In this document: one piece after another, positions 20,722 to 37,412 of the stretch | How the letters are laid out: every line of letters starts with the position of its first letter | Numbering within the stretch: the stretch's first letter is position 1 | NCBI GenBank assembly: GCA_002305195.1 | Contig: DBQK01000009.1 | Coordinates: forward strand, 61,575-125,494 | Length of the DNA stretch: 63,920 nucleotides | Source of the DNA: Patescibacteria group bacterium UBA1396 | GTDB lineage: Bacteria; Patescibacteriota; Microgenomatia; UBA1400; UBA1396 | Direction: 5' to 3' | Position numbers and translations under genes: made by a program | Notes under the pieces: generated by a model | What the model was told of the DNA's origin: nothing | What the model saw: only the letters and a program-made list of their open reading frames with translations | Databases searched by the model: none

Positions 20722-20735
20722 AGTACAATAGGTCT

Positions 20736-22226: not shown

Positions 22227-22230
22227 CGAT

Positions 22231-22797
22231 TTAATTGTTTCTACTGACGTATTCGCCGGTGGACGTGTCGATTACGACTTTATCGCCGGTCTTAACAAAT
22301 ATTGGCACCGCGATGGTTGCTCCAGTTTCAAGTTTAGCTTGTTTTTTTGGCGCGGTAACCCGATCTCCAGCTACTGCCTCCTCAGCCTCAGTTACTTCAA
22401 GAGTAACTTTTTTGGGTAAAAAGATACCGATTGGCTGGTCATTGTAAAATTGAACGTGACAAGTCATTTCTTCTTTAAGAAAGTTACGATCACTGCCCAT
22501 TACTTCACCAGAAACCTCGACTTGATCATAGGTGCGAGGGTTCATAAACACAAAGTTATTGCCTTCTTGGTAGATGTACTGCAATTCCCTTGTTTCCACT
22601 TCCGCTAGCTCAACTTGCTCAGTGGTTTTGTAGGTAAAGTCCATCATTTTACTGGTGAGGACATTGCGTAGTTTTACTCTGGTAAAGGCCGAGCCTTTAC
22701 CTGGACTAACAAATTCGTGAGATATAACTTGGTGTGGTTCATTGTGATGTAGCACAAACATACCTTTGCGCACATTGCCGCCGTTAACTGTTGACAT
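22231..22797 (-). CDS. efp: Elongation factor P (Lys at the modified position)
   Basis: VSPGKGSAF loop; LETGA..VPIFV..GD C-terminus. Confidence 0.97.
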   Translation of the reverse strand: MSTVNGGNVRKGMFVLHHNEPHQVISHEFVSPGKGSAFTRVKLRNVLTSKMMDFTYKTTEQVELAEVETRELQYIYQEGNNFVFMNPRTYDQVEVSGEVMGSDRNFLKEEMTCHVQFYNDQPIGIFLPKKVTLEVTEAEEAVAGDRVTAPKKQAKLETGATIAVPIFVKTGDKVVIDTSTGEYVSRNN

Positions 22798-22803
22798 AGG
22801 AGG

Positions 22804-23838
22804 CTATTTTATCAGTTCTGGCCAGAGGTGAGTAGCGGGGAAAGCCAAAGTTTCTTGAATTGATGGTTGATCGGTAAAAAGCATTACCAGTCGATCTACC
22901 CCAACCGCAATGCCGGCGCATTCTGGCAGCCCGCTTTTGAGGGCATTAATAAAGTTATAATCAATGTCGAATAAGGTTCTACCAGTTTTGGCTTTTTCTT
23001 GTTGATCCTCCTTCAATCTATTCAACTGTTCCTGCCAATCGGTTAATTCTGAGAAGGCATTTCCCAGCTCAAGACCGTTGATGTAGAACTCAAACCTTTC
23101 AGCGAATCTGGGATCTGACTTTTTCTTTTTCGATAACGCTGCCTGACTGACAGGATATTCGTAAATAATGGTTGGTTTGGTTTTTCCTAAGTTAGGTTCT
23201 ATCTCATTTAAAAATATTTGGTTATACACTTCTTCCCAGGTTGTTTGTTCGTTAACCTGATAACCTCTTTCTTTGCTGGCGGCTAATAATTTAGGAGTTG
23301 TAAGTAGGATTTTCTGATCAATTTGAGCGTATTTCTTAAAAGCTTGGCTGACAGTTATCCTTTCCCAAGGCTCAGTAAGATTATATATTTCTCCCTGATA
23401 TTCTAAAATTGGTTGTTGGTCTGGGTGAATGGTTTTGGCGATGGATTTGAGCAACTGTTCACAGTCGTCCATAATTTGAAGATAATCTGCACCCACGCGA
23501 TACCATTCTAGGATGGAAAATTCCGGATTATGCCGAGGGCTTACGCCCTCGGCATTACGAAAACTTTTTGTAATTTGGAATATATTACCTGATCCGGCTG
23601 CCAGCATCTGCTTCATCGCATATTCCGGGCTGGAAATTAAAAAGGCTCTAGTTGGCTGACGATTTTGATCAAGTAGTTGAGTTTCAAAAACCTCTAGATA
23701 CGGCTCCATACTTGGTAGTGGTACTAACTGAGGAGTTTCGGCTTCCCAAAAACCTGATCGCCGAAAAAAATCGCGGATGGCTTGAACAATTACCGCACGT
23801 TGTTTAAGCACGGGGAAGTTAAATTGGTGGGAGCTCAT
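22804..23838 (-). CDS. epmA: EF-P lysine aminoacylase EpmA/GenX
   Basis: LysRS catalytic core without anticodon domain; SSPEYAMK, FRNAE...HNPEF, GIAVGVDRL; adjacent to efp. Confidence 0.93.
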   Translation of the reverse strand: MSSHQFNFPVLKQRAVIVQAIRDFFRRSGFWEAETPQLVPLPSMEPYLEVFETQLLDQNRQPTRAFLISSPEYAMKQMLAAGSGNIFQITKSFRNAEGVSPRHNPEFSILEWYRVGADYLQIMDDCEQLLKSIAKTIHPDQQPILEYQGEIYNLTEPWERITVSQAFKKYAQIDQKILLTTPKLLAASKERGYQVNEQTTWEEVYNQIFLNEIEPNLGKTKPTIIYEYPVSQAALSKKKKSDPRFAERFEFYINGLELGNAFSELTDWQEQLNRLKEDQQEKAKTGRTLFDIDYNFINALKSGLPECAGIAVGVDRLVMLFTDQPSIQETLAFPATHLWPELIK

Positions 23839-23852
23839 GCCTGGATTGTTGG

Positions 23853-24245
23853 TTAGATAGATTTGTTATTTAATCTAAAAATTTGCCTTAATTTTTCAGC
23901 AAAGATTTCTTGGAATTCTTGATGAAGGTGCGGAGATGCAATTGGACTGATATCGGCTACTTCAAGGAATTGTTGCAAAGCTTGTTTATAGGTAGCAAGG
24001 AGCCTTCTATCTCCTTTTTTATTTTTTAATTGAGCATAAATGGCGTCTCTTTCACCATTATTCAAGTCTGTATTTTGTTTCAGTGCATCTTCTGCATTTC
24101 TCAGATTAATTGACCAATGACCAATTTTTTCCTTATTTCCAACCAACTCGCGTAAATCTTCGGTAGTTAAAGCAGTTTGAGTGCCAAGCTCATCATAGAT
24201 TTGATTTGCGTTCTTGTAGTTTTCCAATCTATCTTCCATTGACAT
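23853..24245 (-). CDS. Hypothetical protein
   Basis: 130 aa ORF filling the gap between epmA and sod; no motif. Confidence 0.65.
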   Translation of the reverse strand: MSMEDRLENYKNANQIYDELGTQTALTTEDLRELVGNKEKIGHWSINLRNAEDALKQNTDLNNGERDAIYAQLKNKKGDRRLLATYKQALQQFLEVADISPIASPHLHQEFQEIFAEKLRQIFRLNNKSI

Positions 24246-24305
24246 AGAAACCGATTCTATCTCAATTGGCTGATTTTTTCTAGATAAAGAAAAGTTAGCG
24301 CGTTA

Positions 24306-24905
24306 TTATTCCAAACGCTTTTCAACCTCAGCCCAGTTAACTATCTGCCACCAGTTTTCAACATATTCTGGTCGGCGATTCTGGTACTGAAGATAGTAAG
24401 CGTGTTCCCAAACATCCAACCCTAAAATGGGCTTTAATCCATCCATAATTGGACTATCTTGATTAGGAGTTGATAAGACTAAAAGTTGGTTATCTGGGTT
24501 AGCCACTAGCCAGGCCCATCCACTGCCAAATCTGTTTAGCGCGTGTTGGGTAAACTCATTTTTAAAGTTGTCGAATCCACCAAAAAATTGCTTAAAGGCA
24601 GACATTAGTTTTTCACTTGGTTCTTGTGGGCCATTTCCTTGTAGACTAGTCCAGAACAAGGAGTGGTTAGCGTGGCCGCCACCGTTGTTTCTAACTGCCA
24701 GTTGAATCTCAGCCGGAACTTGATCGAGGTTAGCCAGCAGATTTTCAACACTCATTGTTAGTAAATCGTGATGTCCTTCTAAAGCAGCGTTTAATTTGTC
24801 AACATAACCACCATGATGTTTAGTGTGGTGAATTTCCATGGTTTTGGCGTCGATAACCGGCTCGAGCGACCGGTAGTCATACGGCAATTTTGGCAATTGA
24901 TGCAT
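24306..24905 (-). CDS. sodA: Superoxide dismutase, Mn-type signature
   Basis: [28 protein letters not shown]; SD AAGGAGG upstream. Confidence 0.93.
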
Positions 24906-25042
24906 AAACCCTCCTTACTGAAAACGTTAACTGTTTATTATTAAAGGTGTAATACAAAGTATACTTTATTCCTAGTAAGAAGACGGTAAGCCTTTAGCAA
25001 CTACTTATAAAGGAATTTCTACACCTTAACTAAAGTGAATGA

Positions 25043-26473
25043 TTACAGGTTCTGAATGATATTCAAAGCCACAAAAATTACAAAGAAAGTGAAGGCAATT
25101 AACATTACCAGCTTACGCCACCAACTGGCTTGAATTGATTTGGGCAGCTCGCGACGATTAAGCCAGTAAATAAGCGGAAAGGCAATCATCATAGCGGTGG
25201 CATTTAGAACAGCGCTTAAGGTGATTAAAAATCTTGGTTCTTGCCACCCAGACAGTAAGACCAAGATTCCCAGTGTAATTTGACCCCACAGGGCAAAGTA
25301 GAAACCTGCTGATAGATTAGATTTTTTTCCTGGTCGATAAAATAAAAGCAAGATATTTTCAGAAATAATTCTTGAAGAAGACTCAATGACCCCTAACTGA
25401 GTCGAAAACAGCATAATGGCTGATAACAACAAGAATGACGTGCCAATAAACGGCCCAACCTGTTGAGTGATAACAGCAGCTTCATGATAGAGAAACGATA
25501 TACCCTCTGTCTGCGCTTGTCCAAAGACTAAGGCATAAGCCAAAATAGAAAGCAAAGCAATTGTTACAAATCCCAAGACCCAGAAAACCAAGAAATGTTC
25601 AATATTAACTAGTCTCCACCAACGTTGCCAAAGCTTATTGTTGCTGGCAGTCTGGCTAAAAACCCTACCTTCCAAATACATTTTTTGCTGACCGCCGCTA
25701 ATTAAAGAAGAGATTTTCTGGGTGCCTTTGCCCATGCCAAATCCTTTCTCCTTTATATAGTAGGATTGAGCCAAATTTAAATTACCGCCGGCACCGGAAT
25801 AGGCAAAGGCACCTAGAAAGGCAAAGAAGCCAATATTGGTAGGAAATAACCACCAGCCATCGCCTCTACCAACAAGCCCCCAAGCTGCTGATTGCCAGTC
25901 TGCTAGAGAGCTGAGATAAAAGGTCAGTAAGATAATCATCGGCACCCCAATCAGGATGATATTGCGCTGTATTGTCTCCATTGTTTTGTATAAGGTCTTG
26001 CCAGCGCTAAGGATGATTCCGGTTAGTAATAACAAGCCAATAGCCACAATTTTTGTGCTAAATATCGGTATAAATTGGGCAAGGATCTGGGAGCTGGCTG
26101 AAGAAAAGCCAGGAATCGACCAGGGAATAAAAGTAGATAAAATAAACCAAATTGGTAATAAAATTGATAAGCGTCTGAAACCGACAAAAATGCTTTCTCC
26201 TTTGGCCAAGGTGTAGCGCATTGCTTCTGTATTAAGTATAAATTGAAAACTTACACCAAGCAAAGCTCCCCACAGAAGACCTAGTCCATAGTTAGCGGCT
26301 AAATATGGCCATAAAAGCAACTCACCACTACCAAGCGCTAAACCTAGTAAAATAAATGACGGTCCGATAGTCCGCCACAAACTTGGGGGCGTTGGTAAAT
26401 TGACTGATTGACGTTTTTTGGACGCTGGGCGAGGCACCTTTTCACAATAGCAAAAATCTGGTTTAAGAAGCAA
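25043..26473 (-). CDS. Nramp-like divalent metal transporter (YcsG-like)
   Basis: GPSFILLGLALGSGELLLWP, AYSGAGG; about 11 TM segments; start may be slightly downstream. Confidence 0.75.
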   Translation of the reverse strand: MLLKPDFCYCEKVPRPASKKRQSVNLPTPPSLWRTIGPSFILLGLALGSGELLLWPYLAANYGLGLLWGALLGVSFQFILNTEAMRYTLAKGESIFVGFRRLSILLPIWFILSTFIPWSIPGFSSASSQILAQFIPIFSTKIVAIGLLLLTGIILSAGKTLYKTMETIQRNIILIGVPMIILLTFYLSSLADWQSAAWGLVGRGDGWWLFPTNIGFFAFLGAFAYSGAGGNLNLAQSYYIKEKGFGMGKGTQKISSLISGGQQKMYLEGRVFSQTASNNKLWQRWWRLVNIEHFLVFWVLGFVTIALLSILAYALVFGQAQTEGISFLYHEAAVITQQVGPFIGTSFLLLSAIMLFSTQLGVIESSSRIISENILLLFYRPGKKSNLSAGFYFALWGQITLGILVLLSGWQEPRFLITLSAVLNATAMMIAFPLIYWLNRRELPKSIQASWWRKLVMLIAFTFFVIFVALNIIQNL

Positions 26474-26547
26474 ATTCTAATTTGGTAGTATGGAATAAAA
26501 ATTTTCTCAAGTTGAAACTTGCCAGCGCTAGAAACCCTATTAGAAAT

Positions 26548-27411
26548 TTACTGTTGGCATACTGGACAATAGTGGGTGCCTCGCCCAGCCACTTTGGTTT
26601 TCTGAATAATCGAACCACATTGGAGGCATTTTTCTTCGGCTCGACCATAAACTTGCAAGAATTTGGCATAGCCACCCTTTTTACCTTCATGGTCGGCATA
26701 ATTTCTAAATGTAGTACCTCGGTGTTTTATCGCTTGAGAAATAATATTTTTAATCGCTTGATACAAAGCATGCTTTTGAGAATCATTTAGAGTACCTGTG
26801 TTTCTATTAGGCAAGATGCCAGCTTGAAGGCAAACTTCATCGGCATATATGTTGCCTAAGCCGGCAATTTCCTGTTGATCCAGTAACCAACTTTTGACCG
26901 GTCTCTTTCTTAAATCAATTTTTTCTTTAAATGCCTGCCAAGTAAAGCTCGGAGTTCCTGGTTCTAAACCATAGCTATTAACCAGCTGACTTAATTGGTC
27001 GGTGGTAGCTAGTTGGGTGTAACCAAATTGTCGAAGGTCGTTAAAAAATAGGGTCGACTGATCTTGAAAGTGGAACATTAAATGTGTGTATTTATTGGGT
27101 AATTCTGATTTAAAATCCGGATATGGGTGCCCACCAGCTATTAAGGTTTGATCGGTTGGGTAAATTAACTGGCCGGTCATTTTCAGATGAATTAACAAAT
27201 ATTGGGGCTCAGATTTTTTTAAATGAAAGATTAGAAGTTTGGCTCTGCGACTAATATTAGTAAATTGATTACCGATAATTGCTGCTTGAAATTGACTTAA
27301 ATCGCCACGTACAATTTTAGGCAGACCAACCGTGACATTTTCGATCCTTTTAAAAAGGACATTGTTTTCTAGTCCTCTTCTAATGGTCTCTACCTCTGGA
27401 AGTTCGGGCAT
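26548..27411 (-). CDS. mutM: Formamidopyrimidine-DNA glycosylase
   Basis: MPELPEVE, HLKMTG, GLGNIYADE, C-terminal CxxC...CxxC zinc finger. Confidence 0.97.
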   Translation of the reverse strand: MPELPEVETIRRGLENNVLFKRIENVTVGLPKIVRGDLSQFQAAIIGNQFTNISRRAKLLIFHLKKSEPQYLLIHLKMTGQLIYPTDQTLIAGGHPYPDFKSELPNKYTHLMFHFQDQSTLFFNDLRQFGYTQLATTDQLSQLVNSYGLEPGTPSFTWQAFKEKIDLRKRPVKSWLLDQQEIAGLGNIYADEVCLQAGILPNRNTGTLNDSQKHALYQAIKNIISQAIKHRGTTFRNYADHEGKKGGYAKFLQVYGRAEEKCLQCGSIIQKTKVAGRGTHYCPVCQQ

Positions 27412-27469
27412 AAGAGATTATTATAGGTGTTTTTATATAAATATTAAGTAAGAGTTTATTGGGAAATAC

Positions 27470-27499
27470 TTGACAGAGCTTGGTTTTCTATCTTAGAAT
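27470..27499 (+). promoter_or_regulatory. Sigma70-type promoter of hsp20
   Basis: TTGACA (27470-27475), 18 bp spacer, TAGAAT (27494-27499); SD AGGAGG at 27557-27562. Confidence 0.7.
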
Positions 27500-27503
27500 T
27501 TCC

Positions 27504-27530
27504 TTAGCAGTCAACACTATAGACTGCCAA
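27504..27530. promoter_or_regulatory. CIRCE (HrcA operator) variant
   Basis: TTAGCAGTC-N9-GACTGCCAA versus consensus TTAGCACTC-N9-GAGTGCTAA, located between promoter and hsp20. Confidence 0.85.
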
Positions 27531-27567
27531 AAACGAACAAAATACAAAACAGGGAAAGGAGGAAAAA

Positions 27568-27987
27568 ATGACCCTAACACGTTGGAGTCCAGTTAGCCGA
27601 ATGCTGTCTCCTTGGTCAGACTTATGGGAGGATGATTTACTACCAGTAGGCGGCAGTTCTCTAGGAGGTATGGAGGTTTACGAAACCGAAAAAGATGTTG
27701 TGGTTAAATTAAATGTGGCTGGTGTGCCGCAAGATAAAATCGACATAACTTTCGAAAAAGGAGTTTTGTTTGTTAATGCCCAACTTGAAGAAGAAAAGCA
27801 TGAGGAAAAGCGTAACTACTATAGTCGTTCCACCAAGCAGTACAGTTACCGAGTAGCTGTACCAGGAGAGATTGATCTTGGCAAAGAACCAGACGCACAA
27901 GTTGACCAAGGCATCTTGACCGTCAAGTTTGCTAAATCTCAAGCTGCCTTACCAAAGAAGTTGAAGATTAAAGCTAGTAGTAAGTAA
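27568..27987 (+). CDS. Hsp20/alpha-crystallin small heat shock protein
   Basis: VYETEKDVVVKLNVAGV...DQGILTVKF. Confidence 0.93.
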   Translation: MTLTRWSPVSRMLSPWSDLWEDDLLPVGGSSLGGMEVYETEKDVVVKLNVAGVPQDKIDITFEKGVLFVNAQLEEEKHEEKRNYYSRSTKQYSYRVAVPGEIDLGKEPDAQVDQGILTVKFAKSQAALPKKLKIKASSK

Positions 27988-28022
27988 AACCAATCCTTGG
28001 TGAAAATTGGTTAAAGATAATT

Positions 28023-28053
28023 AAAGGCGCCGGCCAAACTGACCGGCGCTTTT
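28023..28053 (+). terminator. Intrinsic terminator after hsp20
   Basis: GCGCCGG/CCGGCGC stem followed by TTTT. Confidence 0.8.
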
Positions 28054-28129
28054 AATAACCACTAAGTAAAAATTATACTTGCTACTCTACTCTTTTTAAC
28101 TTCCTTGCCAAACTTGGTATCATAGAGTC

Positions 28130-29224
28130 ATGATCGATAACCAATTGTTTAACTTTGGCAGTTTTTTTCCAGCTTGGTTTTTAGACTTACTCACACATCA
28201 ATATTTTGGCAATCGGCTTTGGCAATATTTAATCACTGCGTTTTTGGGGGCAATCGTATTTTTTTCATTGTTAATTTTGAAGCAGATGGTTATCAAAAAA
28301 TTAGATCGACTGGTGAAGAGAACTTCATCTGGACTTGATGATGTTTTGTTGAAAACGCTTGGGAAAATGCACTGGTATGTTTACTTATTGATTGCTGCAA
28401 TTTTGGTGCTACCCATATTGGATGTCGACGAGCAAATCACAAAAAATATTGACCTTTTGGCTCTAATCATTATCACGATTGAAATAATTTCCTTTTTGCA
28501 GCGAGTCATTAATTACTTTATTGCAAGACAAAAATTATTAAATACCGACACTCAATCCTCTGGAGAAGCGATTAAATTAGCCGGTCGGATTGCACAATCG
28601 GTTTTGTGGTTTTTTGGTGGTTTACTAATAATTTCTAATTTAGGTATTGATGTAACCTCTCTTTTAGCTGGAGTTGGTGTCAGTGGTATTATCGTGGCTT
28701 TTGCCTTGCAAAATGTTTTATCTGATTTATTTAGTTCACTATCAATTCATTTTGATAAGCCTTTTAAAGTTGGTGACTTTATCGCTTTTGGCGATTATTT
28801 AGGTACTGTGGAAAAGATTGGTGTTAAGTCGGTCCGTATTAGATCATTAAGTGGCGAAGAATTAATCATTCCTAACCAAGATATTACTAATGAGAGAATT
28901 AAAAATTATAGATCATTACACCGGCGACGAGTGCAGCTTTCCTTTGGCGTTGCCTATGGGACAAGTAACAACCAGCTAAAAAAAATTCCTCCAGCGGTGG
29001 CTAAAATTATCGACGATATAGAATTAACCGATTTCAGTCGAACTCATTTTTCATCTTTTGATTCTCATGCTTATACTTTTGAAGTTGTCTATTTTGTCAA
29101 CAGCAGTGATTATCGAACTCATATGGATATTAAGCAGCAGATTTTATTGGGGATTAAGTCTTACCTTGAAAAAGAAAAGATTGACATTCCCTTCCCCACT
29201 CAAACCATCAAGCTGGAAAAGTAA
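28130..29224 (+). CDS. mscS: Small-conductance mechanosensitive channel
   Basis: LGIDVTSLLAGVGVSG..FALQNVLSD, PFKVGD, IPFPTQ. Confidence 0.93.
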   Translation: MIDNQLFNFGSFFPAWFLDLLTHQYFGNRLWQYLITAFLGAIVFFSLLILKQMVIKKLDRLVKRTSSGLDDVLLKTLGKMHWYVYLLIAAILVLPILDVDEQITKNIDLLALIIITIEIISFLQRVINYFIARQKLLNTDTQSSGEAIKLAGRIAQSVLWFFGGLLIISNLGIDVTSLLAGVGVSGIIVAFALQNVLSDLFSSLSIHFDKPFKVGDFIAFGDYLGTVEKIGVKSVRIRSLSGEELIIPNQDITNERIKNYRSLHRRRVQLSFGVAYGTSNNQLKKIPPAVAKIIDDIELTDFSRTHFSSFDSHAYTFEVVYFVNSSDYRTHMDIKQQILLGIKSYLEKEKIDIPFPTQTIKLEK

Positions 29225-29238
29225 GAGCAAATAATAGT

Positions 29239-30216
29239 TTAGCCAGCTAAACCGATTTTTTGTTTAACTTCTTGAATAGTGTCTTGAGCAATTACCAGAG
29301 CTTTTTCGGTTCCCTCTGCAATAATTTGATCGACATATTGTGGATCAGACAAAATTTCTTGACGTTTAGCCTGAAAGGGCTCAAGTTCTTGATAAATTGC
29401 TTGGGCGACAGTGTCTTTTAGCTCAACATACTTAAGTGTACCGCCAGCAAATTTTTCTAGAAATGCTGTATGTTTCTCTGGGGCAAAAAAGTTAAGCAGT
29501 GTAAACAATACCTCTACTCCACGGCTCATCTTACCGCCGACCTCAGTGGCTGTGGGAACGCTTCTGACTTTCTTTCTAATGGTGTCTAAGTCATCGGTTA
29601 ACAAGATGTAACTTCCAGCTACTGATTTACTCATTTTGCCTTCACCAGTTAAGCTGGGGATGTATTCCCCTTTAGTGGCGAATCTTTGTGGTTCGGGGAA
29701 ATTAGTACCGTAATCTTGATTCATTTTACGAGCAATATTTCTAGCCACTTCAAGATGAGGTTCTTGGTCAATGCCTACCGGAACCAATTCACCTTGATAC
29801 AGCAAAATATCAGCTGCCTGCAGAACTGGATAATTGAGTAAAGCCAAGCTGGTGAAGTTGGGGTACTGTTTAACTTTTTCCTTAAAAGTTGGTAGATGCT
29901 GCATTTTGGCCACGGTCGTTACTGACGCGAAATAGAAGGCCAGCTCGAAATGATAAGGTATATCAGCTTGACAAAAAAGAATGCTTTTTTGGGGATCAAG
30001 GCCAGCTGCTAAATAATCGATAATTATTTCGCGACGTTGTCGGCGTAGCTGGTTCACATCATAAGGTGTAGTGATAGCGTGAGCATCTGCCACCATATAT
30101 AAGGTTTCGTACTCACTACTATCCTGCAATGCTAGCATTCCCGATACTGCACCTAAATAGTTGCCAAGGTGTAGTTGTCCGGTTGCTCGGATTCCTGATA
30201 AAACACGTTTGCTCAT
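29239..30216 (-). CDS. trpS: Tryptophanyl-tRNA synthetase
   Basis: SGIRATGQLHLGN, YPVLQAADIL, VGIDQEPH, KMSKS. Confidence 0.97.
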   Translation of the reverse strand: MSKRVLSGIRATGQLHLGNYLGAVSGMLALQDSSEYETLYMVADAHAITTPYDVNQLRRQRREIIIDYLAAGLDPQKSILFCQADIPYHFELAFYFASVTTVAKMQHLPTFKEKVKQYPNFTSLALLNYPVLQAADILLYQGELVPVGIDQEPHLEVARNIARKMNQDYGTNFPEPQRFATKGEYIPSLTGEGKMSKSVAGSYILLTDDLDTIRKKVRSVPTATEVGGKMSRGVEVLFTLLNFFAPEKHTAFLEKFAGGTLKYVELKDTVAQAIYQELEPFQAKRQEILSDPQYVDQIIAEGTEKALVIAQDTIQEVKQKIGLAG

Positions 30217-30250
30217 ATATCTCCTTTATTTTCTTGTGTTTATTGCTAAC

Positions 30251-30480
30251 AAAAAAGCCCTAGCGTATTTCCAAGCCTAAGGCTTAGAAACACGCTAGGG
30301 CCATTTTTTGGCGGTGCCACCTAGCTTCACTTAGAGTGTTACCACCCTAAGTCTTAACTACCATTCGTTTGGTAGTTTGAACTTGATAACGGATTCAACC
30401 CGAGATGGCTACTTTCTTTATTATTAAAGCCGTTTCACCACCCAGCTCGGCAGGCCCATTTTCCTGCCTCTAGCGCTTTG
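30251..30480 (-). promoter_or_regulatory. Trp T-box riboswitch with ultrashort Stem I and intrinsic terminator
   Basis: Stem I 30477-30444 with UGG in the apical loop (30458-30456); Stem II 30443-30403 with GAA/AGUA S-turn; IIA/B pseudoknot 30402-30383; Stem III 30351-30330; antiterminator GCUAGG-UGGCACC-GCC...GGC-CCUAGC 30325-30294; terminator 30301-30251. Confidence 0.92.
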
Positions 30481-30486
30481 TGACCC

Positions 30487-30514
30487 AGTATAATGTAGAG
30501 CCAGTAGGTGTCAA
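30487..30514 (-). promoter_or_regulatory. Promoter of the trpS leader
   Basis: TTGACA (30514-30509), 16 bp spacer, TATACT (30492-30487); overlaps a + strand TATAAT (30489-30494) facing truB. Confidence 0.7.
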
Positions 30515-30534
30515 TAGACAAGTCAGGAATATAA

Positions 30535-31230
30535 ATGACTCAATTAGATTCAATAAACCGAGTCCTGCCGGTTTTTAAGCCAGTAGGAATGTCCTCGCAC
30601 CATGTTATCCGGATCTTTAAAAAGCAAGCCGATTATAAAGGAAAGATAGGTCACGCCGGAACTTTAGATGTTTTTGCCAGTGGTTTATTATTGTTATTGT
30701 TAGGTAAAGCCACCAAACAATTTGACTATTGGCAAACTCAAACTAAAACATATGTCAGCGGTTCAAGACTAGGAATGGCTAGCGAGACCCTAGATGTTGA
30801 GGGTAATTTGAAAGTCCAATCCAACGTTTCTTCCCCTTCTGCTGATCAAATACGAGGAGTTCTCCCCAAATTTATTGGTGAAATTGAACAGGCTGTTCCA
30901 ACCTACTCCGCCGCCAAGTTTCAAGGTCAGCCTTTTTACAAGTATGCCAGGCAAGGAAAAATTATTGAAAAATCAAAAAAAGTTAGGATAGATAAGATTG
31001 ACTTGGTCGCTTGTCAATATCCATTGGTAACGCTAGAGATTCAATGTGGTTCGGGAACTTATATTCGGCAGCTTGCCTGGGACATATTTCAGTCATTGGG
31101 GATTGACAGTTTTTTATATTACTTGACTCGAACTCAAGTTGGCGAGGTAAATCTTGCTCAGGCAGCACCAATTAGTCACTTTAACAACCAAAAGTGGCAG
31201 GATTTTTTAATTGATATCAAAGCCAGTTAA
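30535..31230 (+). CDS. truB: tRNA pseudouridine-55 synthase
   Basis: GHAGTLD, SAAKFQG, CGSGTYIR. Confidence 0.95.
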   Translation: MTQLDSINRVLPVFKPVGMSSHHVIRIFKKQADYKGKIGHAGTLDVFASGLLLLLLGKATKQFDYWQTQTKTYVSGSRLGMASETLDVEGNLKVQSNVSSPSADQIRGVLPKFIGEIEQAVPTYSAAKFQGQPFYKYARQGKIIEKSKKVRIDKIDLVACQYPLVTLEIQCGSGTYIRQLAWDIFQSLGIDSFLYYLTRTQVGEVNLAQAAPISHFNNQKWQDFLIDIKAS

Positions 31231-31307
31231 TTAATCAGAACTAGTTATCGACCGTGAAACTAGCTAAAGGTTTACGAGTTGGATACAATGTTAAATAAGT
31301 AGAGCAA

Positions 31308-31754
31308 GTGCGAGGAGGTTGTATGTCGAAGCGAAATAATTCTTTTTTGTCGTTATTTGGGGTTGTGTTGGGAGTTGCCGCAGGTTGGAAATTGCGAAAG
31401 ATAGTTCAGAGAGAGTATGAAAATATCAAGGTTAAACCAGGATCTTCACAGAAAGTCTCAGATAAAGAACTATTAAATACAATCTTTGGCAAGTATTCGC
31501 AAGAATTAAAAAGTTACTTTCAAGAAGTGAGAGACGGAATTGATTGTCAGGTAAAAGAACTTAAGCTTGATTTAAAAAGTATTGATACTGCTAAGTATAA
31601 AGATATTGTGAATGAAGTTTTGACTAGTTTGAAGTCTGAGTACAAGGTTTCTAAGCAAGAGATTAGCCAGCTGCGCGATTATTTATTGTCCGATTTTGAA
31701 GTGATGACTAAAAAAGTTAAATCAAAAACTTCGAAAGACACAAAAAAGAAATAA
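31308..31754 (+). CDS. Hypothetical protein with N-terminal membrane anchor (YtxH-like)
   Basis: GVVLGVAAG TM segment then helical domain; likely start is ATG 31323 after GAGGAGG. Confidence 0.65.
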   Translation: MRGGCMSKRNNSFLSLFGVVLGVAAGWKLRKIVQREYENIKVKPGSSQKVSDKELLNTIFGKYSQELKSYFQEVRDGIDCQVKELKLDLKSIDTAKYKDIVNEVLTSLKSEYKVSKQEISQLRDYLLSDFEVMTKKVKSKTSKDTKKK

Positions 31755-31772
31755 ATATACAGAAGGTGTTTT

Positions 31773-31991
31773 ATGCAGCTGGAACAAATTTTTTACATCT
31801 TAAGCATTGCCTTTTTCTTTAGTTTCTGGATATTAATAGCAGTTGTGATTGTTTTTTTATTGTCACTGTATCGCAACTACTCCGATTGGAAAAAAAACTT
31901 TTGGCATGGAAAAACATTTCTATCTGGTTTGTTAACTATTACTACCCTGGCTGGTCCTTTGATTAAAAAATTAACCAATAAGCGTCGCTAA
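31773..31991 (+). CDS. Small membrane protein
   Basis: 72 aa, hydrophobic, preceded by GAAGGTG. Confidence 0.6.
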   Translation: MQLEQIFYILSIAFFFSFWILIAVVIVFLLSLYRNYSDWKKNFWHGKTFLSGLLTITTLAGPLIKKLTNKRR

Positions 31992-32060
31992 TCACTAGGC
32001 TCGTGCAAGTTGAATTTATTAATTAGGAATAAAAGAATAGGAATGTAAGATAACAGCGGT

Positions 32061-33905
32061 TTACCAACTACCGCCTCCTCCGCCTCCCCCGCCACCACCT
32101 GAAAAACCACCACCTGAAAAGCCGGAAGATCCGGAGCCAGATCCAGAACTAGAGGAGTTGAAAGCTAAGTTTTTATTAACCTGCTGGCTGAAATCATTGG
32201 TGAAATTAACTAAAGTACTACCAACCACAGCATTACTACCTAGATATTCTGGAGCGGCTATACCAAGATCCTTCATATCATTGGCAATTTTATCAACTAC
32301 CCCCAAACCGATAGCAAAGGGAAGCACTTCCTCGATGAATAGGTTTTTTTCCTTGATTTCTTCTCGCCACTTACCTCTTTCAATAGTCTTTTTTAAACCA
32401 TTGGCAAGTTGACTGATCCTCCAACCTGCCAGAGTTTTAGCTGGCATTTGCCAAGCAAATATTAGAGCTGCCGTTGAAGAAATCATAAAAATTAAAACGA
32501 GACCAATCAAAATAATAGGCCAAAATAAAAATGTTTCCCAGACTGAAAACAGTGCAGCTCCGGAGACTACTATTAAGCTACCAGCCACGGCAAAATAGAT
32601 TCCCTTCTGCTTACTGGGAGTTGCTGTAAAGTACTTTCCGGATTTAAGACTTTGTTCAACCTTCTTTTTCCACTCCAAAAATTGTTGATAAAAAGTGCCC
32701 TTTAACTCGCTAAGCTTAACTTTATTATTTTTTTTAAATATTGCTGAAACCAAAAAAGATTGGTGATCCGGCAAATTTGGCTGTTTACTATTTTTAATGA
32801 GAGAATATTCGTCTTTTGTAGAAAATAACCGTTTTTTCTGTTCAACCTTGATGCTAAGGGCTTTTTTTCTGGCTAGATCGATAATTTCGGCGGCCAGCGC
32901 CCGGTTGGGAATGGTCTCGGTCCGGATTAATTCAACTTGGGCGGGAGAAAGATCAGTAAATGGCTCATAGTGAAACGGCACTGGCCGCCGCCAAAACAAA
33001 GGTTTCTTGACAACCTCATTGGTTTTAGCGGATAGATAAACATGAGATAACGAAACAGTGTCCCTACCCTTTCGCCACCACAAGTAGCCCATTATCGGAC
33101 CTGAAATAACAGTACCGATTAACTGTAGAATTACCAGCCAATTAATATTATTTTTTTGCCACCAAGTGGGAAAGGTCAGTTGGTTAGGCAGCTCAAGTTT
33201 TAGGACTACGGTTAGGTTATCGCCTGGGTTAAACAGTTGTTTGGAAGTTACGCTAACTTGACTAGAATTAATGAACTCTATGTTACAGTTGGAGTCGGTG
33301 CTACCAAACTTACCAGTAAAACATTTAGCATCAACAATCTCAGCATGTGGGGAAGATATTGTAGCTGCCGCTTGGTTAATGGGGAAATTCCAATCTTCAC
33401 CTGTAATATCCCAATAAAGCTCATCATAGCTGTCATAATGATCAACAGCGTAAGAAACTTCATAATTTAGTTGATAATGCTGCTGACCGGAAAAAGTACG
33501 GTTAGGATCGCCAATTTTTGCCACAAAATTGTTATTTTCAATTTGGGAGGTCCAAGGAACTGAACCACCATCAATTAACTGAACCGAAAAGTTTTTGATG
33601 GAAAATCTCTCTACTCCACTTGAGGATTTGATCTTCAGAGGAATGAAGCGAAAAATACCATGTTTTTCCAACTGAGTTTTGAATAAAATCTTTTCCGATA
33701 TTTTTAGTGATGTGTCTGGCAAGATCTCTATCTCGGTTGTAAATGATTCAATGAATTCCGGCACTGCTTGTCTACTTAGTTCGCCTTGAGCATATGCCGT
33801 ACTTAATATAACTAAAAAATAGGAGCTGCAAATAACCAATCCAAAAATAATCAACCGAAACAAAGAAATTTTTTTCAGCCAGCTCTTAAAATGAGACATT
33901 TTCAT
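32061..33905 (-). CDS. DUF2207 family membrane protein
   Basis: HGIFRFIP, DELYWDITG, LPFAIGLG, Gly/Ser-rich tail ending GGGGGSW. Confidence 0.9.
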   Translation of the reverse strand: MKMSHFKSWLKKISLFRLIIFGLVICSSYFLVILSTAYAQGELSRQAVPEFIESFTTEIEILPDTSLKISEKILFKTQLEKHGIFRFIPLKIKSSSGVERFSIKNFSVQLIDGGSVPWTSQIENNNFVAKIGDPNRTFSGQQHYQLNYEVSYAVDHYDSYDELYWDITGEDWNFPINQAAATISSPHAEIVDAKCFTGKFGSTDSNCNIEFINSSQVSVTSKQLFNPGDNLTVVLKLELPNQLTFPTWWQKNNINWLVILQLIGTVISGPIMGYLWWRKGRDTVSLSHVYLSAKTNEVVKKPLFWRRPVPFHYEPFTDLSPAQVELIRTETIPNRALAAEIIDLARKKALSIKVEQKKRLFSTKDEYSLIKNSKQPNLPDHQSFLVSAIFKKNNKVKLSELKGTFYQQFLEWKKKVEQSLKSGKYFTATPSKQKGIYFAVAGSLIVVSGAALFSVWETFLFWPIILIGLVLIFMISSTAALIFAWQMPAKTLAGWRISQLANGLKKTIERGKWREEIKEKNLFIEEVLPFAIGLGVVDKIANDMKDLGIAAPEYLGSNAVVGSTLVNFTNDFSQQVNKNLAFNSSSSGSGSGSSGFSGGGFSGGGGGGGGGGSW

Positions 33906-33928
33906 AGTCTTGTTATTTAAACTTTATT

Positions 33929-34735
33929 TTACTTACTTTTTCTGTTTTTTGGCTGACTGAATAATTTCAGTGAAGAAGTAATAACTATAGTAGTTATGGT
34001 TATTAATCCGAGTTGATAGAGATTTGCTGAAGTGATAATTGTTGCAGGTGCTGCAGTTGGAAGAATAATCTGTTCTGCCGCTTGTACCCTGGCACCAGCA
34101 ACTTGAGACTCATTTGCTTGGGAGTCTGTTAATGAATTTTCTGAGTTGGTACCAGATTCTTGTCCAATGTTAGGACTATTTAGTGGTTTGCCAAAAAAAT
34201 TAACCACTAGTGTGGTGGGGTTATCTTGGTAACTTCCAGATAAAACCGCAATTCCGATTTCGGTATATTCTGGGTTTAAAATATTTTCTTTATGGGTTGG
34301 TGAGCTCATCCAGGCTTGAACCATTTGATTGGTGTCACTAAAATTTCTAGCTAAGTTTTCGCCAGCAAATTTATAGTTGTAACCTACCCTATCTAAAAAT
34401 ATCCACGGTTCAAAACCGTCCGGACTATTGTGTGACCAGTATTGTCGATTCATCATATCTTGTGCTTTTTCCCAAGCAGCTTCTGATAATTGATCATTGA
34501 GTTTTAGCGGCAGCAGATTTGCTTCGGTTCTTTGTGAATTAATTTTGGTCAAAACCTCTGGAACCGCAATAGAACTTTGAAAACCAATTATTCTGGCAAG
34601 CTGCGGTAAGTAAAAATTTGCCCACAAGCTAAGCACCCAGCTAACACTAATAATGATAATTAGCCAAAACCAGCGATTATTGACAGGAAATTTTTTATGA
34701 TTGGTTCGATGATAAAAAATTGACTTAGTTGGCAC
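33929..34735 (-). CDS. CAP (SCP) domain surface protein
   Basis: KAQDM..YWSHNSPDG, AGENLA, WMSSPTHKENIL; TM segments at both ends. Confidence 0.9.
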   Translation of the reverse strand: MPTKSIFYHRTNHKKFPVNNRWFWLIIIISVSWVLSLWANFYLPQLARIIGFQSSIAVPEVLTKINSQRTEANLLPLKLNDQLSEAAWEKAQDMMNRQYWSHNSPDGFEPWIFLDRVGYNYKFAGENLARNFSDTNQMVQAWMSSPTHKENILNPEYTEIGIAVLSGSYQDNPTTLVVNFFGKPLNSPNIGQESGTNSENSLTDSQANESQVAGARVQAAEQIILPTAAPATIITSANLYQLGLITITTIVITSSLKLFSQPKNRKSK

Positions 34736-34808
34736 GATAACATCATATCAATTTTGCGATAAGAAAAGCTAACAACAATTACTATCAATATATATAGAAA
34801 TCAGTCAA

Positions 34809-35555
34809 TTGCTAGTTATCTATAGCATGGTGTATATTGCAACTATGCTTACCCTACTTCTGGTTGAGGATAATCAAGAAGTAGCAACTTTTATTCAAGA
34901 ATATCTTGGTAGAGGCGGCTACAATGTGCTACGCGCCAGCACCGGTTCCAGAGCTCACGATCTTTTTGCCCAAACTCAACCTGACCTAATTATTCTAGAT
35001 CTAGATTTGCCTGATGTTAGAGGTGAGACTCTTTGTGAGGAATTTAAACAAATGAACCCTGAGATACCAATTATTATGTTAACCGGTGCATCTCAAACTT
35101 CCGATGTAGTGCGTGGGTTAAACATTGGTGCTGACGACTACATCACGAAACCTTTCGAGGGTAAGGAATTGACCGCCAGGATTAAAGCTCGTTTAAGAGA
35201 AAGAGGTTTGAGTAATAAAATTTTGCGTGTTGAAGATCTAACTCTTAACACCGAGACGATGGAGGTTTTTAGAGGAGAGAGACAGATAAGTTTAACTCCC
35301 CAGGAATTCCGGCTACTTGAATATTTGATGCTTAACCCTAATCGAGTTTTAACCAGGGATATGATTTTAAGCAGGGTTTGGCAAACAGCTCCTGATATCG
35401 AAACCAGAGTAGTTGATGTCTATGTTGGCTACTTAAGAAAAAAAATTGATCAAGGTGAAAAATTAAAATTAATTACTTCCGTTAGGGGTTTTGGTTACAC
35501 GATTAAAACCAGCAAAACTGTTAAAGTGAAAAATAACCCTGAAAAAAACAATTAA
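34809..35555 (+). CDS. OmpR-family response regulator
   Basis: LLVED, ILDLDLP, GADDYITKPF, winged-helix VRGFGY; real start probably at MLTLLLVED. Confidence 0.95.
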   Translation: MLVIYSMVYIATMLTLLLVEDNQEVATFIQEYLGRGGYNVLRASTGSRAHDLFAQTQPDLIILDLDLPDVRGETLCEEFKQMNPEIPIIMLTGASQTSDVVRGLNIGADDYITKPFEGKELTARIKARLRERGLSNKILRVEDLTLNTETMEVFRGERQISLTPQEFRLLEYLMLNPNRVLTRDMILSRVWQTAPDIETRVVDVYVGYLRKKIDQGEKLKLITSVRGFGYTIKTSKTVKVKNNPEKNN

Positions 35556-36607
35556 GCTGCTTTTTTAGTATCATTATTAGTATTAGCGATTGGCAGTGAA
35601 AAGCTGATGGTAGTTCCTTTACTTTTTTGGCTAACGATCTCTATTTTACTTTGGTAGTGATTCAATATTTCTCTGACTAAAAATAAACCAATGCCCATAC
35701 CTGATGGCGAAGGCCTTGACTTGACTTGGTAGTACAAATCAAATATTTTATGTTGTTCTGGTTGAGGAATACCAACTCCTTGGTCCTTAACCGATATTTG
35801 AACTCTATTTTGTGAGGTTAGTTTTTTGATTGAAATTTTTATCAAAGTGCCAGACTCAGAATTTTTGATAGCGTTTGACAATAAATTATCAAGAACTTGA
35901 GAAAGTCTTTGTGGATCAAAAACAACTTTTGATTTTATACTTCCGGAAATTTCGAGCCAATGTGTCTGATGAGACAAACGATATTCAGTCACAAATTTGT
36001 TTAAAAATTTCATTAACGACTGGGACTGGTCATTATAGATTAACTCGCCACCTGAAAGTCTGGTGACATCAAGAAAGTCAGCCAATAAAGTGTCAATCAA
36101 GATAATTTTTTGCTTAATTTTTTTAACATACTCAAGGCGCTTTTTAGCATCTGATTCCTGATTTAACATAGCAATTGTTTCAGACATGGCCATCAGACTA
36201 GCAAGTGGATTTTTTAGTTCATGACCAACTACTTTAAGAATGTGTTCTCGTCTTTGATTACCTTTAATTTCTTGAGAAATATCTTTTAAATCAAGATATA
36301 ACTGATTTTTATCGGCTTGCAAAGTAATTTGAACCACAATTTGCTGGCCGTTCAGTAGCCAGGTTCTAGTAACGGTGTGTGGCTTATTTGAATGTTCAAT
36401 TTTGTTAATTAATTTTTTGAAATCAGAGGAATGTTTATCGACTGAAATTTTTCGATCAAACGCAAAAAAGTTAAGCTTATTGGGTGTTTGATGAACAATT
36501 TTCCAGAAACTTTGGTTCGCCCAAATTAGATCACCTGTCAAATTGAGAATTGCTAGTCCCGAGTTACTTAGCTTGGCTAGCTGTTGATAATTTTGGTAAT
36601 TGCTCAT
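35552..36607 (-). CDS. Cytoplasmic PAS-containing sensor histidine kinase
   Basis: HELKNPL H-box, NLLSNAIK, DQGVGI, GMGIGL; no TM segment. Confidence 0.9.
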   Translation of the reverse strand: MSNYQNYQQLAKLSNSGLAILNLTGDLIWANQSFWKIVHQTPNKLNFFAFDRKISVDKHSSDFKKLINKIEHSNKPHTVTRTWLLNGQQIVVQITLQADKNQLYLDLKDISQEIKGNQRREHILKVVGHELKNPLASLMAMSETIAMLNQESDAKKRLEYVKKIKQKIILIDTLLADFLDVTRLSGGELIYNDQSQSLMKFLNKFVTEYRLSHQTHWLEISGSIKSKVVFDPQRLSQVLDNLLSNAIKNSESGTLIKISIKKLTSQNRVQISVKDQGVGIPQPEQHKIFDLYYQVKSRPSPSGMGIGLFLVREILNHYQSKIEIVSQKSKGTTISFSLPIANTNNDTKKAA

Positions 36608-36775
36608 TATTTAGATTGTTAGTTTATATTTATCCAGTAAACAAACTGATTGTGCCGATTTGTCCCAGTTTAGCTCATAGTTGGGATTATCTGAAGTCCT
36701 TTTTTTAAATTTGCTTGCTGGAAAAATATATTTTCTTTATACTTCTTTAGTTAGGATTAACTTAATAAGATTGTT

Positions 36776-37339
36776 TTGGTCGTTATGAATATTATTTACC
36801 TTTTTAAAAAATACCCGCCCTATTTAAAAGCAGCCGTCTATGGCGCCAATGATGGACTGGTTACCACCTTTGCTGTGGTGGCCGGCGCCGCCGGCGCCGG
36901 CCTACCTGTTCCTTCAGCACTAATCTTGGGCATCTCAAATGTAGTTGCTGATGGTTTGAGTATGGGACTGGGAGATTTTTTGGGCGAACGTTCAGAAAGA
37001 AGAATTGATTCCAATACTAAGAATAAAATTGCGGTGTGGCATACAGGTTTAATCACATTTTTATTTTTTGTGTTAGCTGGCCTATTGCCCCTTATATCAT
37101 TAGTTTTTGTGGTATTAGATATTCCAATACTGATCAACTTGTCGGATAATTATTTATTACTGTCTTCAGTAACAACCGGCTTTGCGATGTTTGCGTTTGG
37201 TAGTTTACGAACTTTAGTCACTAAAGGTTCCTGGATAAAAAACGGAATGGAAATGCTGCTTGTTGGCATGTTGGCTGCCGCCCTTGCCTATGGTTTGGGT
37301 CATTTTTTACAGCGACTATTTTCTTCTTTTCTCTTATAA
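36776..37339 (+). CDS. VIT1/CCC1 Fe/Mn transporter family protein
   Basis: YGANDGLVTTFAVVAG, ADGLSMGLGDFL. Confidence 0.9.
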   Translation: MVVMNIIYLFKKYPPYLKAAVYGANDGLVTTFAVVAGAAGAGLPVPSALILGISNVVADGLSMGLGDFLGERSERRIDSNTKNKIAVWHTGLITFLFFVLAGLLPLISLVFVVLDIPILINLSDNYLLLSSVTTGFAMFAFGSLRTLVTKGSWIKNGMEMLLVGMLAAALAYGLGHFLQRLFSSFLL

Positions 37340-37412
37340 AAATAGAGTAATTAATGCACCAAAATCAAACTACTGATTGTCATTAAGATGTTATTTGCTA
37401 CACTTATAACAA

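What the first reader, a model, noticed from the sequence alone, without database searches (positions are those of the whole stretch)
30251..30480. Trp T-box with actinobacterial-style ultrashort Stem I but a transcriptional terminator
Seen (minus strand): AGC-GCUA-GA-GGCAGG-[AAAAUGGG]-CCUGCC-GA-GCU, a 34 nt K-turn stem with the Trp codon UGG in the apical loop and no AG-bulge or T-loops. It is followed by Stem II with S-turn, the CGGG-UUGAA-UCCG-UUA-UCAA pseudoknot, an extra hairpin and Stem III. The antiterminator bulge is UGGCACC, whose C matches the G73 discriminator of tRNA-Trp. A 21 bp terminator plus U6 overlaps the antiterminator, directly upstream of trpS. Known: ultrashort Stem I T-boxes are described as translational ileS switches in Actinobacteria, whereas terminator-type T-boxes normally have a long Stem I. 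Inference: a hybrid class with a new specificity, in a phylum thought to have little regulation. Standard covariance models may miss it.
Basis: partly seen in the sequence, partly recalled or inferred. Interest (0 to 1): 0.9.

Follow-up and report, generated by a model that had tools for sequence, protein, structure and literature searches.

The report
Short-stem tryptophan T-box with terminator
This is a real tRNA-sensing "T-box" RNA switch in front of the tryptophanyl-tRNA synthetase gene of an ultrasmall (CPR/Patescibacteria) bacterium; it reads tRNA-Trp with a tiny 34-nt hairpin yet ends in a transcription terminator, a combination the T-box literature treats as not going together.

Summary
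The parts, in order:
- a sigma-70-like promoter
- a 34-nt K-turn hairpin with UGG in an 8-nt apical loop
- Stem II with a GAA/AGUA S-turn
- the IIA/B pseudoknot
- an extra hairpin
- Stem III
- an antiterminator with a UGGCACC bulge
- an overlapping 22-23 bp terminator plus U6
- an unpaired Shine-Dalgarno sequence
- trpS

Rfam's T-box model scores only 37 bits against a cut-off of 93, because the long Stem I is missing. The genome's tRNA-Trp(CCA) has G73, which matches UGGC.

A covariance model built from this leader finds 15 same-type leaders in the order. All have the loop AGAAUGGG and a terminator plus U-run. Nine precede TrpRS genes. 42 of 51 base pairs show compensatory changes. The pseudoknot was not in the model, and all 5 of its pairs covary.

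Across the phylum, short apical-loop Stem I leaders with terminators carry other codons that match their genes: GUC with valS, GAC/AAC with aspS, AUC with ileS.

One correction: the pseudoknot partner is GUUCAA (30382-30377), not the UCAA next to UUA.

I found no description of this class in the searchable literature. Function is inferred; no experiment or RNA reads were available.

The parts
30487..30514 (-). Promoter-like site TTGACA-16 nt-TATACT. It places the transcription start a few bases before Stem I.
   Evidence: 11 of 12 matches. The same TTGACA/TATACT pair is visible, by my reading of the sequence, upstream of the leaders in L003 and L004.
30444..30477 (-). Short Stem I (34 nt). K-turn C-stem AGC/GCU; tandem GA at 30470-30469 and 30448-30447; 6-bp helix GGCAGG/CCUGCC; 8-nt apical loop AAAAUGGG.
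   Evidence: Covariation in helices 1 and 2. Stem I is 31-35 nt in all 15 family members.
30456..30458 (-). Specifier codon UGG (Trp), followed by the loop-closing purine G30455.
   Evidence: loop AGAAUGGG conserved. Frame rule checked on valS, aspS and ileS leaders.
30403..30443 (-). Stem II. Lower helix GGGUGGU/GCCAUCU, internal loop GAAACGG / AAAGUA (S-turn type, purine run GAAAG), upper helix CUUUA/UAAAG.
   Evidence: All 12 pairs of helices 3 and 4 show compensatory changes.
30377..30402 (-). Stem IIA/B pseudoknot. IIA is CGG/CCG with the conserved CCGUUA. IIB is UUGAAU (30398-30393) paired with GUUCAA (30382-30377).
   Evidence: IIB was not part of the covariance model, yet 5 of 5 pairs covary and 90% of cells pair.
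30357..30376 (-). Extra hairpin between IIA/B and Stem III (ACUACCA-AACGAA-UGGUAGU). It is a simplified copy of a lineage-specific insert.
   Evidence: Helix 7 has 6 of 6 pairs with compensatory changes. Relatives carry a UGUCAC...ACAGAG version, and so does the long-stem T-box in the same genome.
30330..30351 (-). Stem III (CUUAGGG-UGGUAACA-CUCUAAG), flanked by purines (AAGA before, UGAA after).
   Evidence: Helix 8 has 7 of 7 pairs with compensatory changes.
30294..30325 (-). Antiterminator. Helix A1 is GCUAGG/CCUAGC. The 7-nt T-box bulge UGGCACC lies at 30319-30313, and its UGGC pairs with the 3'-ACCG-5' end of tRNA-Trp. Helix A2 is GCC/GGC.
   Evidence: tRNA-Trp has G73. Folded alone the antiterminator is -11 kcal/mol.
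30251..30302 (-). Intrinsic terminator: a 22-23 bp hairpin at 30302-30257, then UUUUUU at 30256-30251. Its 5' arm includes the 3' arms of both antiterminator helices.
   Evidence: -39 kcal/mol. An equivalent hairpin plus U-run is present in all 15 family members.
30221..30227 (-). Shine-Dalgarno AAAGGAG of trpS, unpaired in the predicted fold.
29239..30216 (-). trpS, tryptophan--tRNA ligase (325 aa), the regulated gene.
   Evidence: TIGR00233, 274.7 bits, cut-off 176.75.

Best explanation
This is a tRNA-Trp-responsive T-box riboswitch that controls trpS by transcription attenuation.

Transcription starts just downstream of the -10 box (30492-30487). The nascent RNA folds a decoding module made of three parts: a K-turn-based 6-bp Stem I that presents UGG in an apical loop, Stem II with an S-turn, and the IIA/B pseudoknot. 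By analogy with the solved short-Stem-I ileS T-boxes, this module clamps the anticodon stem-loop of tRNA-Trp(CCA) without touching the tRNA elbow.

When the bound tRNA is uncharged, its 3' G73-C-C-A pairs with UGGC in the antiterminator bulge. Stem III stacks on this, and the weak antiterminator (-11 kcal/mol) is held long enough for RNA polymerase to pass. trpS is then transcribed.

When tRNA-Trp is charged or absent, the much stronger terminator (-39 kcal/mol, plus U6) displaces the antiterminator and transcription stops at about 30251.

Shown here: the sequence and structure elements, their covariation, the codon/discriminator/gene match, and the conservation of the terminator. Inferred: tRNA binding, the lack of an elbow contact, and termination in vivo.
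For: - RF00230 matches end to end at E = 8e-7, with only the distal Stem I missing.
- The specifier UGG, the UGGC bulge, G73 of the genome's tRNA-Trp and the downstream trpS are all mutually consistent.
- 15 leaders of this type occur in the order, all with the loop AGAAUGGG (one AGAAUGGU) and Stem I of 31-35 nt.
- On these 15 leaders, 96% of cells pair and 42 of 51 pairs carry double changes. Slid controls pair at 32-47%. The pseudoknot was outside the model, and all 5 of its pairs covary.
- All 15 have a hairpin plus U-run that overlaps the antiterminator.
- 9 of 15 precede TrpRS genes of three sequence types.
- The codon frame rule is confirmed on valS (GUC), aspS (GAC/AAC) and ileS (AUC) leaders of the same build.
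- The SD is unpaired and lies 24 nt beyond the U-run.
- The promoter is conserved in the genus.
Against: - No experimental or transcript-end evidence is available.
- Terminator-like sites are not enriched in the surrounding 20 kb (19 found against 17 +/- 4.7 in shuffles). General use of intrinsic terminators by this organism is therefore not shown.
- The literature holds that transcriptional T-boxes need the Stem I elbow platform for fast tRNA capture (PMC7583486).
- The alignment used for the pair counts was fitted to the model.
- Most trpS genes of related species have no T-box upstream.
Confidence: 0.85

Rival explanations
1. It is a T-box that acts mainly on translation, or on both levels, like the actinobacterial short-Stem-I ileS leaders. 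On this view the long hairpin serves as a sequestrator or stability element rather than a terminator.
For: Short Stem I types are described as mostly translational (PMC10482949; PMC11297988). One short-stem ileS leader in the phylum sample (L121) has no terminator. Intrinsic terminators are not enriched locally.
Against: The hairpin is followed directly by U6. The SD and AUG lie 24-35 nt beyond the U-run and are unpaired. All 15 family members keep a hairpin plus U-run even though the distance to the start codon varies.
Confidence: 0.07
2. It is a T-box that reads a different tRNA through another triplet of the loop AAAAUGGG, for example AUG (Met), AAU (Asn) or GGG (Gly).
For: AUG followed by G is as conserved as UGG followed by G in the family loop AGAAUGGG.
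Against: In the same genome tRNA-Met has A73 and tRNA-Gly has U73, and neither matches UGGC, whereas tRNA-Trp has G73. One member has GGU in place of GGG. The rule 'three bases before the last loop purine' predicts the downstream synthetase in the valS, aspS and ileS leaders of the same build. 9 of 15 members precede TrpRS genes. tRNA-Asn was not found in this incomplete assembly, so its discriminator base could not be checked.
Confidence: 0.04
3. It is a decaying, non-functional remnant of a long-stem T-box that has lost the distal part of Stem I.
For: The Rfam score is far below the cut-off. trpS T-boxes are sporadic among relatives. The genome also has a long-stem T-box.
Against: The short hairpin has the same length and loop in 15 genomes from several families, with compensatory changes in every helix. 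The promoter, terminator and bulge are intact.
Confidence: 0.02

Closest known systems
Class III T-box riboswitches (short or 'ultrashort' Stem I; Nocardia farcinica, Mycobacterium tuberculosis and M. smegmatis ileS leaders)
   Same: A K-turn-based short Stem I with the specifier in an apical loop. No AG bulge or distal T-loops. An obligatory Stem II with S-turn and a IIA/B pseudoknot. The same discriminator core (Stem III plus the UGGN bulge).
   Different: - The expression platform is an intrinsic terminator plus U-run, not an SD sequestrator.
- The specificity is Trp, not Ile.
- The apical loop is 8 nt (AGAAUGGG), against the 5-6 nt described (PMC10482949).
- There is an extra hairpin between IIA/B and Stem III.
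- The host is Patescibacteria, not Actinobacteria.
Class I transcriptional T-boxes (Rfam RF00230; e.g. Bacillus subtilis tyrS, and Trp-specific leaders of Firmicutes)
   Same: Stem II, the IIA/B pseudoknot, Stem III, the antiterminator/terminator switch, and the codon plus UGGN logic. Regulation of an aminoacyl-tRNA synthetase gene.
   Different: Stem I is 34 nt rather than about 85-110 nt. The specifier sits in the apical loop, not in an internal loop. The interdigitated T-loop platform that docks the tRNA elbow is absent. The Rfam score is 37 bits against a cut-off of 93.
Class II T-boxes (B. subtilis glyQS)
   Same: A transcription-terminating compact T-box. The still smaller trpS leaders seen in relatives (L087, L042, L065) share with this class the lack of Stem II.
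   Different: glyQS keeps the long Stem I with the elbow platform and is glycine-specific. The window's leader keeps Stem II and lacks the platform.

Membership tests
T-box leader (general; RF00230) | Score at or above the Rfam gathering cut-off (93 bits) | tested here: not met
   37.2 bits, local E = 8e-7, full-length match with 72 Stem I positions deleted.
T-box leader (general; RF00230) | Specifier codon in Stem I that matches the amino acid of the regulated gene | tested here: met
   UGG at 30458-30456 upstream of trpS. The frame rule is validated on other codon/gene pairs.
T-box leader (general; RF00230) | Antiterminator with a 7-nt bulge whose UGGN is complementary to NCCA of the cognate tRNA | tested here: met
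   The bulge is UGGCACC, and tRNA-Trp(CCA) of the same genome has G73.
T-box leader (general; RF00230) | Mutually exclusive terminator (or sequestrator) that overlaps the 3' strand of the antiterminator | tested here: met
   The terminator at 30302-30257 shares GGCCCUAGC with the antiterminator. Stabilities are -39 and -11 kcal/mol.
T-box leader (general; RF00230) | tRNA-dependent, aminoacylation-sensitive switching | not testable with these tools
   This needs in vitro antitermination or binding assays.
Class I transcriptional T-box | [quoted passage not shown] | tested here: not met
   Stem I is 34 nt with an apical loop. For contrast, the other T-box of the genome (L001) has AGAGAG and a distal loop.
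Class III T-box (actinobacterial ileS type) | Short Stem I without the platform, with the specifier in the apical loop | tested here: met
   The loop is 8 nt, against the 5-6 nt described in PMC10482949.
Class III T-box (actinobacterial ileS type) | Stem II with S-turn, plus the IIA/B pseudoknot | tested here: met
   The GAA/AGUA motif, CCGUUA and a covarying IIB helix are all present.
Class III T-box (actinobacterial ileS type) | Translational control through an SD sequestrator and anti-sequestrator (typical, described as 'mostly') | tested here: not met
   A hairpin plus U6 is followed 24 nt later by an unpaired SD.

The most novel reading that the evidence does not exclude
Patescibacteria use, as their standard T-box, an undescribed class that makes the co-transcriptional termination decision with only an apical-loop Stem I and no tRNA-elbow contact. 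It usually has Stem II and the pseudoknot, but some trpS leaders lack even those. The class carries many specificities (Trp, Val, Asp/Asn, Ile).

If this is right, the elbow platform is not a requirement of terminator-type T-boxes. Something else would have to supply the speed of tRNA capture: a tight anticodon clamp, the lineage-specific insert hairpin, slow polymerases, or very long terminators that delay the decision.
Probability: 0.55. Interest if true: 0.75.

Novelty: new variant of a known kind. Interest (0 to 1): 0.62.

Why it matters
T-box reviews tie architecture to mechanism. Long Stem I with an elbow-docking platform goes with fast, kinetically controlled transcription termination. 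Short Stem I goes with slower, reversible translational control, essentially the ileS leaders of Actinobacteria.

A conserved, covarying family that joins the short decoding module to a strong terminator, with Trp and other specificities, breaks that link. It also offers natural test cases for what really sets the kinetics of tRNA capture.

It shows that reduced CPR genomes keep tRNA-sensing regulation of synthetase genes. It shows that the Rfam cut-off hides these leaders. And its Trp regulon points to uncharacterised genes, for example a TrpD-like protein, that are linked to tryptophan supply. At about 105-190 nt these leaders are compact parts for engineering.

Tried and rejected
- Rfam at gathering thresholds found nothing in the 64-kb window. 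The T-box appears only in E-value mode.
- A MAFFT alignment of four leaders (A1) misaligned Stem I of L086 and the window's hairpin and Stem III. I replaced it with a single-sequence covariance model carrying a hand-set structure (R1), then with a 4-sequence model (R2).
- I expected trpS leaders to be common. Of 80 trpS loci from related species, only a handful have a T-box core upstream. The family was recovered instead by model search of whole genomes.
- AUG (Met) and GGG (Gly) as specifier are rejected on discriminator bases, loop variation and downstream genes.
- The extra hairpin as a replacement for the elbow platform is disfavoured. The long-stem T-box of the same genome carries the same UGUCAC...ACAGAG insert, and the window's copy has lost that motif.
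- Sherwood 2015 (PNAS) and Vitreschak 2008 (RNA) are not held. I therefore could not check whether they list any terminator-type short-stem leaders.
- Literature searches for T-box together with CPR or Patescibacteria returned nothing.

Full report
**Where and what**

The window is contig C5:61575-125494 of a 666-kb, 12-contig assembly that is 73% complete. Its TrpRS is closest to those of Roizmanbacteria, Levybacteria and Microgenomates MAGs, which belong to Patescibacteria/CPR.

On the minus strand, a 325-aa ORF at 30216-29239 is trpS (TIGR00233, 274.7 bits against a cut-off of 176.75). truB lies divergently at 30535-31230.

**Checking the observation**

- Stem I with K-turn, 30477-30444: AGC-GCUA-GA-GGCAGG-[AAAAUGGG]-CCUGCC-GA-GCU, with UGG at 30458-30456.
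- Stem II, 30443-30403, with a GAA...AGUA internal loop.
- CGG/CCG Stem IIA with CCGUUA.
- A 7-bp hairpin, 30376-30357.
- Stem III, 30351-30330.
- An antiterminator, 30325-30294, with the bulge UGGCACC.
- A 22-23 bp hairpin, 30302-30257, followed by UUUUUU at 30256-30251. Its 5' arm reuses the 3' arms of the antiterminator.

A promoter-like TTGACA-16-TATACT sits at 30514-30487. Two same-genus relatives show the same TTGACA/TATACT pair upstream of their leaders, read by eye from the sequence.

At gathering thresholds Rfam reports nothing in the whole window. In E-value mode, RF00230 matches 30482-30293 end to end at 37.2 bits (cut-off 93) and E = 8e-7. Seventy-two model positions of distal Stem I are replaced by 6 nt. 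The region folds far better than shuffles (z = -8.4).

**Specificity**

The genome's single tRNA-Trp(CCA), at C12:44841-44913, has G73. G73-C-C-A is therefore complementary to UGGC. tRNA-Met has A73 and tRNA-Gly has U73.

The loop also contains AUG and GGG, so the reading frame needed an independent check. In the same phylum, leaders with the same short hairpin carry other loops, and the triplet before the last loop purine matches the gene behind them:

| Loop | Codon | Downstream gene |
|---|---|---|
| AUGUCA, UUAGUCA | GUC | valS |
| CGACA | GAC | aspartate--tRNA(Asn) ligase |
| CAAACA | AAC | aspS / aspartate--tRNA(Asn) ligase |
| CUAUCA, GACAAUCAU | AUC | ileS |
| UUAACA | AAC | an aspartate aminotransferase |

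By this rule the window reads UGG.

**A family, not a one-off**

A covariance model of the window's leader with a hand-set structure (R1) recovered the leaders of two same-genus genomes and one from another family. A 4-sequence model (R2) was then run over 286 genomes of the order. It hit 69 genomes in 52 of 138 genera.

Fifteen hits at 77 bits or more are of the window's type. All have a Stem I of 31-35 nt. The loop is AGAAUGGG, or minor variants AAAAUGGG, AAUAUGGG, AGUAUGGG and AGCAUGGG, with one AGAAUGGU.

On their alignment:

- 96.1% of cells form standard pairs.
- 42 of 51 pairs carry changes on both sides.
- No shuffle reaches these values.
- Sliding the partners by 1-3 columns drops pairing to 32-47%.

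The alignment was fitted to the model, which inflates such counts. Two checks are free of that bias. The Stem I covariation is visible in the raw sequences (GGCAGG/CCUGCC, GGUGGG/CCCACC, GAGGGG/CCCCUC, GUUGGG/CCCAAC). And the IIB pseudoknot helix, which was not in the model, has 5 of 5 covarying pairs.

That helix fixes the window's IIB as UUGAAU (30398-30393) paired with GUUCAA (30382-30377).

**Expression platform**

All 15 leaders have a hairpin that includes the 3' strand of the antiterminator, followed by a run of 4-7 U.

In the window the terminator is -39 kcal/mol against -11 kcal/mol for the antiterminator. The Shine-Dalgarno sequence (30227-30221) is unpaired and lies 24 nt beyond the U-run. 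TBDB reports -19.5 +/- 7.9 kcal/mol for terminators and -7.4 +/- 4.2 kcal/mol for antiterminators, so this terminator is unusually strong.

These features argue for transcription attenuation and against SD sequestration. The main weakness is that terminator-like sites are not enriched in the neighbouring 20 kb (19 against 17 +/- 4.7), and no transcript data could be obtained.

**Regulated genes**

Nine of the 15 leaders precede TrpRS genes of three sequence types, each passing the TIGR00233 cut-off where tested. Four precede an approximately 490-aa protein with a weak anthranilate-phosphoribosyltransferase-family (Glycos_transf_3) match. One precedes a PPDK_N-like gene after a gap, and one is unclear.

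Most trpS genes of related species have no T-box upstream.

**Wider picture**

In an even sample of 401 genomes of the phylum, 29 have hits. Most of the 18 leaders fetched have a Stem I of 21-38 nt. By my script, which requires a hairpin followed directly by a U-run, 17 of the 18 have a terminator. The exception, an ileS leader (L121), has none and may be translational.

The window's genome also has a long-stem T-box on another contig (78.9 bits), with an AG bulge and a distal loop. Both builds therefore coexist in one cell.

The extra hairpin is a lineage-specific insert. In relatives, and in that long-stem T-box, it reads UGUCAC...ACAGAG. The window's copy is a plain hairpin. This makes it unlikely to be a substitute for the missing elbow platform.

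**Mechanism**

The mechanism is the standard T-box logic, driven by a class III-type decoding module.

1. Stem I presents UGG, and Stem II, the S-turn and the pseudoknot clamp the anticodon arm. This step is inferred from the solved ileS complexes described in PMC10482949 and PMC7583486.
2. The uncharged 3' end pairs with UGGC and holds the antiterminator.
3. Otherwise the terminator forms and transcription stops at about 30251.

About 200 nt are transcribed between the codon and the decision point. Whether the insert hairpin and the long terminator buy time for tRNA capture is speculation.

**Comparison with the literature**

- PMC7583486 states that transcriptional T-boxes generally require a long Stem I with the elbow-binding motif, and that most translational ones have an intermediate or 'ultrashort' Stem I.
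- PMC10482949 defines class III as having a short Stem I, a 5-6 nt apical loop and an obligatory Stem II, and as regulating 'mostly' translation.
- PMC11297988 repeats the contrast.
- TBDB searched its short-stem model only in Actinobacteria and among class I hits with a truncated Stem I. Its supplementary text names no candidate phyla.
- Searches for T-box together with CPR or Patescibacteria found no paper.
- Sherwood 2015 and Vitreschak 2008 could not be read, so an earlier mention of terminator-type short-stem leaders cannot be excluded.

**Earlier notes of this scan**

Several other windows were read as short-stem Trp or Tyr T-boxes with terminators in Patescibacteria. I treated these as leads only. 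The family search, the covariation counts and the codon/gene checks above were done independently here and agree with them.

**Verdict**

I rate it a new variant of a known kind. Confidence that it is a functional Trp T-box acting by termination is about 0.85. Interest is 0.62. For T-box specialists the architecture is a real surprise and it is testable, but this locus is one member of a family, and function rests on comparative evidence only.

Noticed in passing
L001:1501-1801 (G000 C7:161227-161527, + strand; outside the window): This is the second T-box of the same genome. It is a long-stem class I type (78.9 bits) with a terminator. The specifier region GAA-AUA-C and the bulge UGGU fit tRNA-Ile(UAU), which has A73 and is encoded at C12:12811-12885. 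It precedes a 323-aa protein with no Pfam match. It carries the same UGUCAC...ACAGAG insert hairpin as the short-stem family.
   Followed up: partly
L087:~1440-1590; L042:~1340-1480; L065:1362-1500: These are still smaller Trp leaders directly upstream of trpS in related genomes. They have a K-turn plus a 5-bp Stem I with the loop AAGGUUGGAR, and neither Stem II nor the pseudoknot. A short linker follows, then (where present) Stem III, the UGGCACC antiterminator, and a terminator plus U-run. They are about 105-150 nt in all and lack both known tRNA-body contacts.
   Followed up: partly
L094, L098, L101, L102 (downstream of the leaders): Four leaders of the window's Trp type control an approximately 490-aa protein with a weak Glycos_transf_3 (TrpD family) match instead of trpS. 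This suggests an uncharacterised tryptophan-linked enzyme.
   Followed up: partly
L121:1501-1748 (minus strand): This is a short-stem AUC (Ile) leader upstream of ileS with no detectable terminator. The start codon lies about 30 nt after the antiterminator-like helix. It may be a translational T-box of the actinobacterial kind, in Patescibacteria.
   Followed up: no
window 30487-30560: truB (tRNA pseudouridine-55 synthase, 30535-31230, + strand) starts 21 bp from the -35 box of the T-box promoter. Two tRNA-related genes therefore share a divergent control region about 50 bp long.
   Followed up: no
window 20001-40000: Intrinsic-terminator-like sites are not enriched over shuffles (19 against 17 +/- 4.7). 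The T-box terminator is by far the longest hairpin plus U-run in the 20 kb.
   Followed up: no
G000 C12:12811-12885: The genome encodes tRNA-Ile with anticodon UAU. Only one CAU-anticodon tRNA was found in this 73%-complete assembly. AUA may therefore be read without the lysidine system.
   Followed up: no
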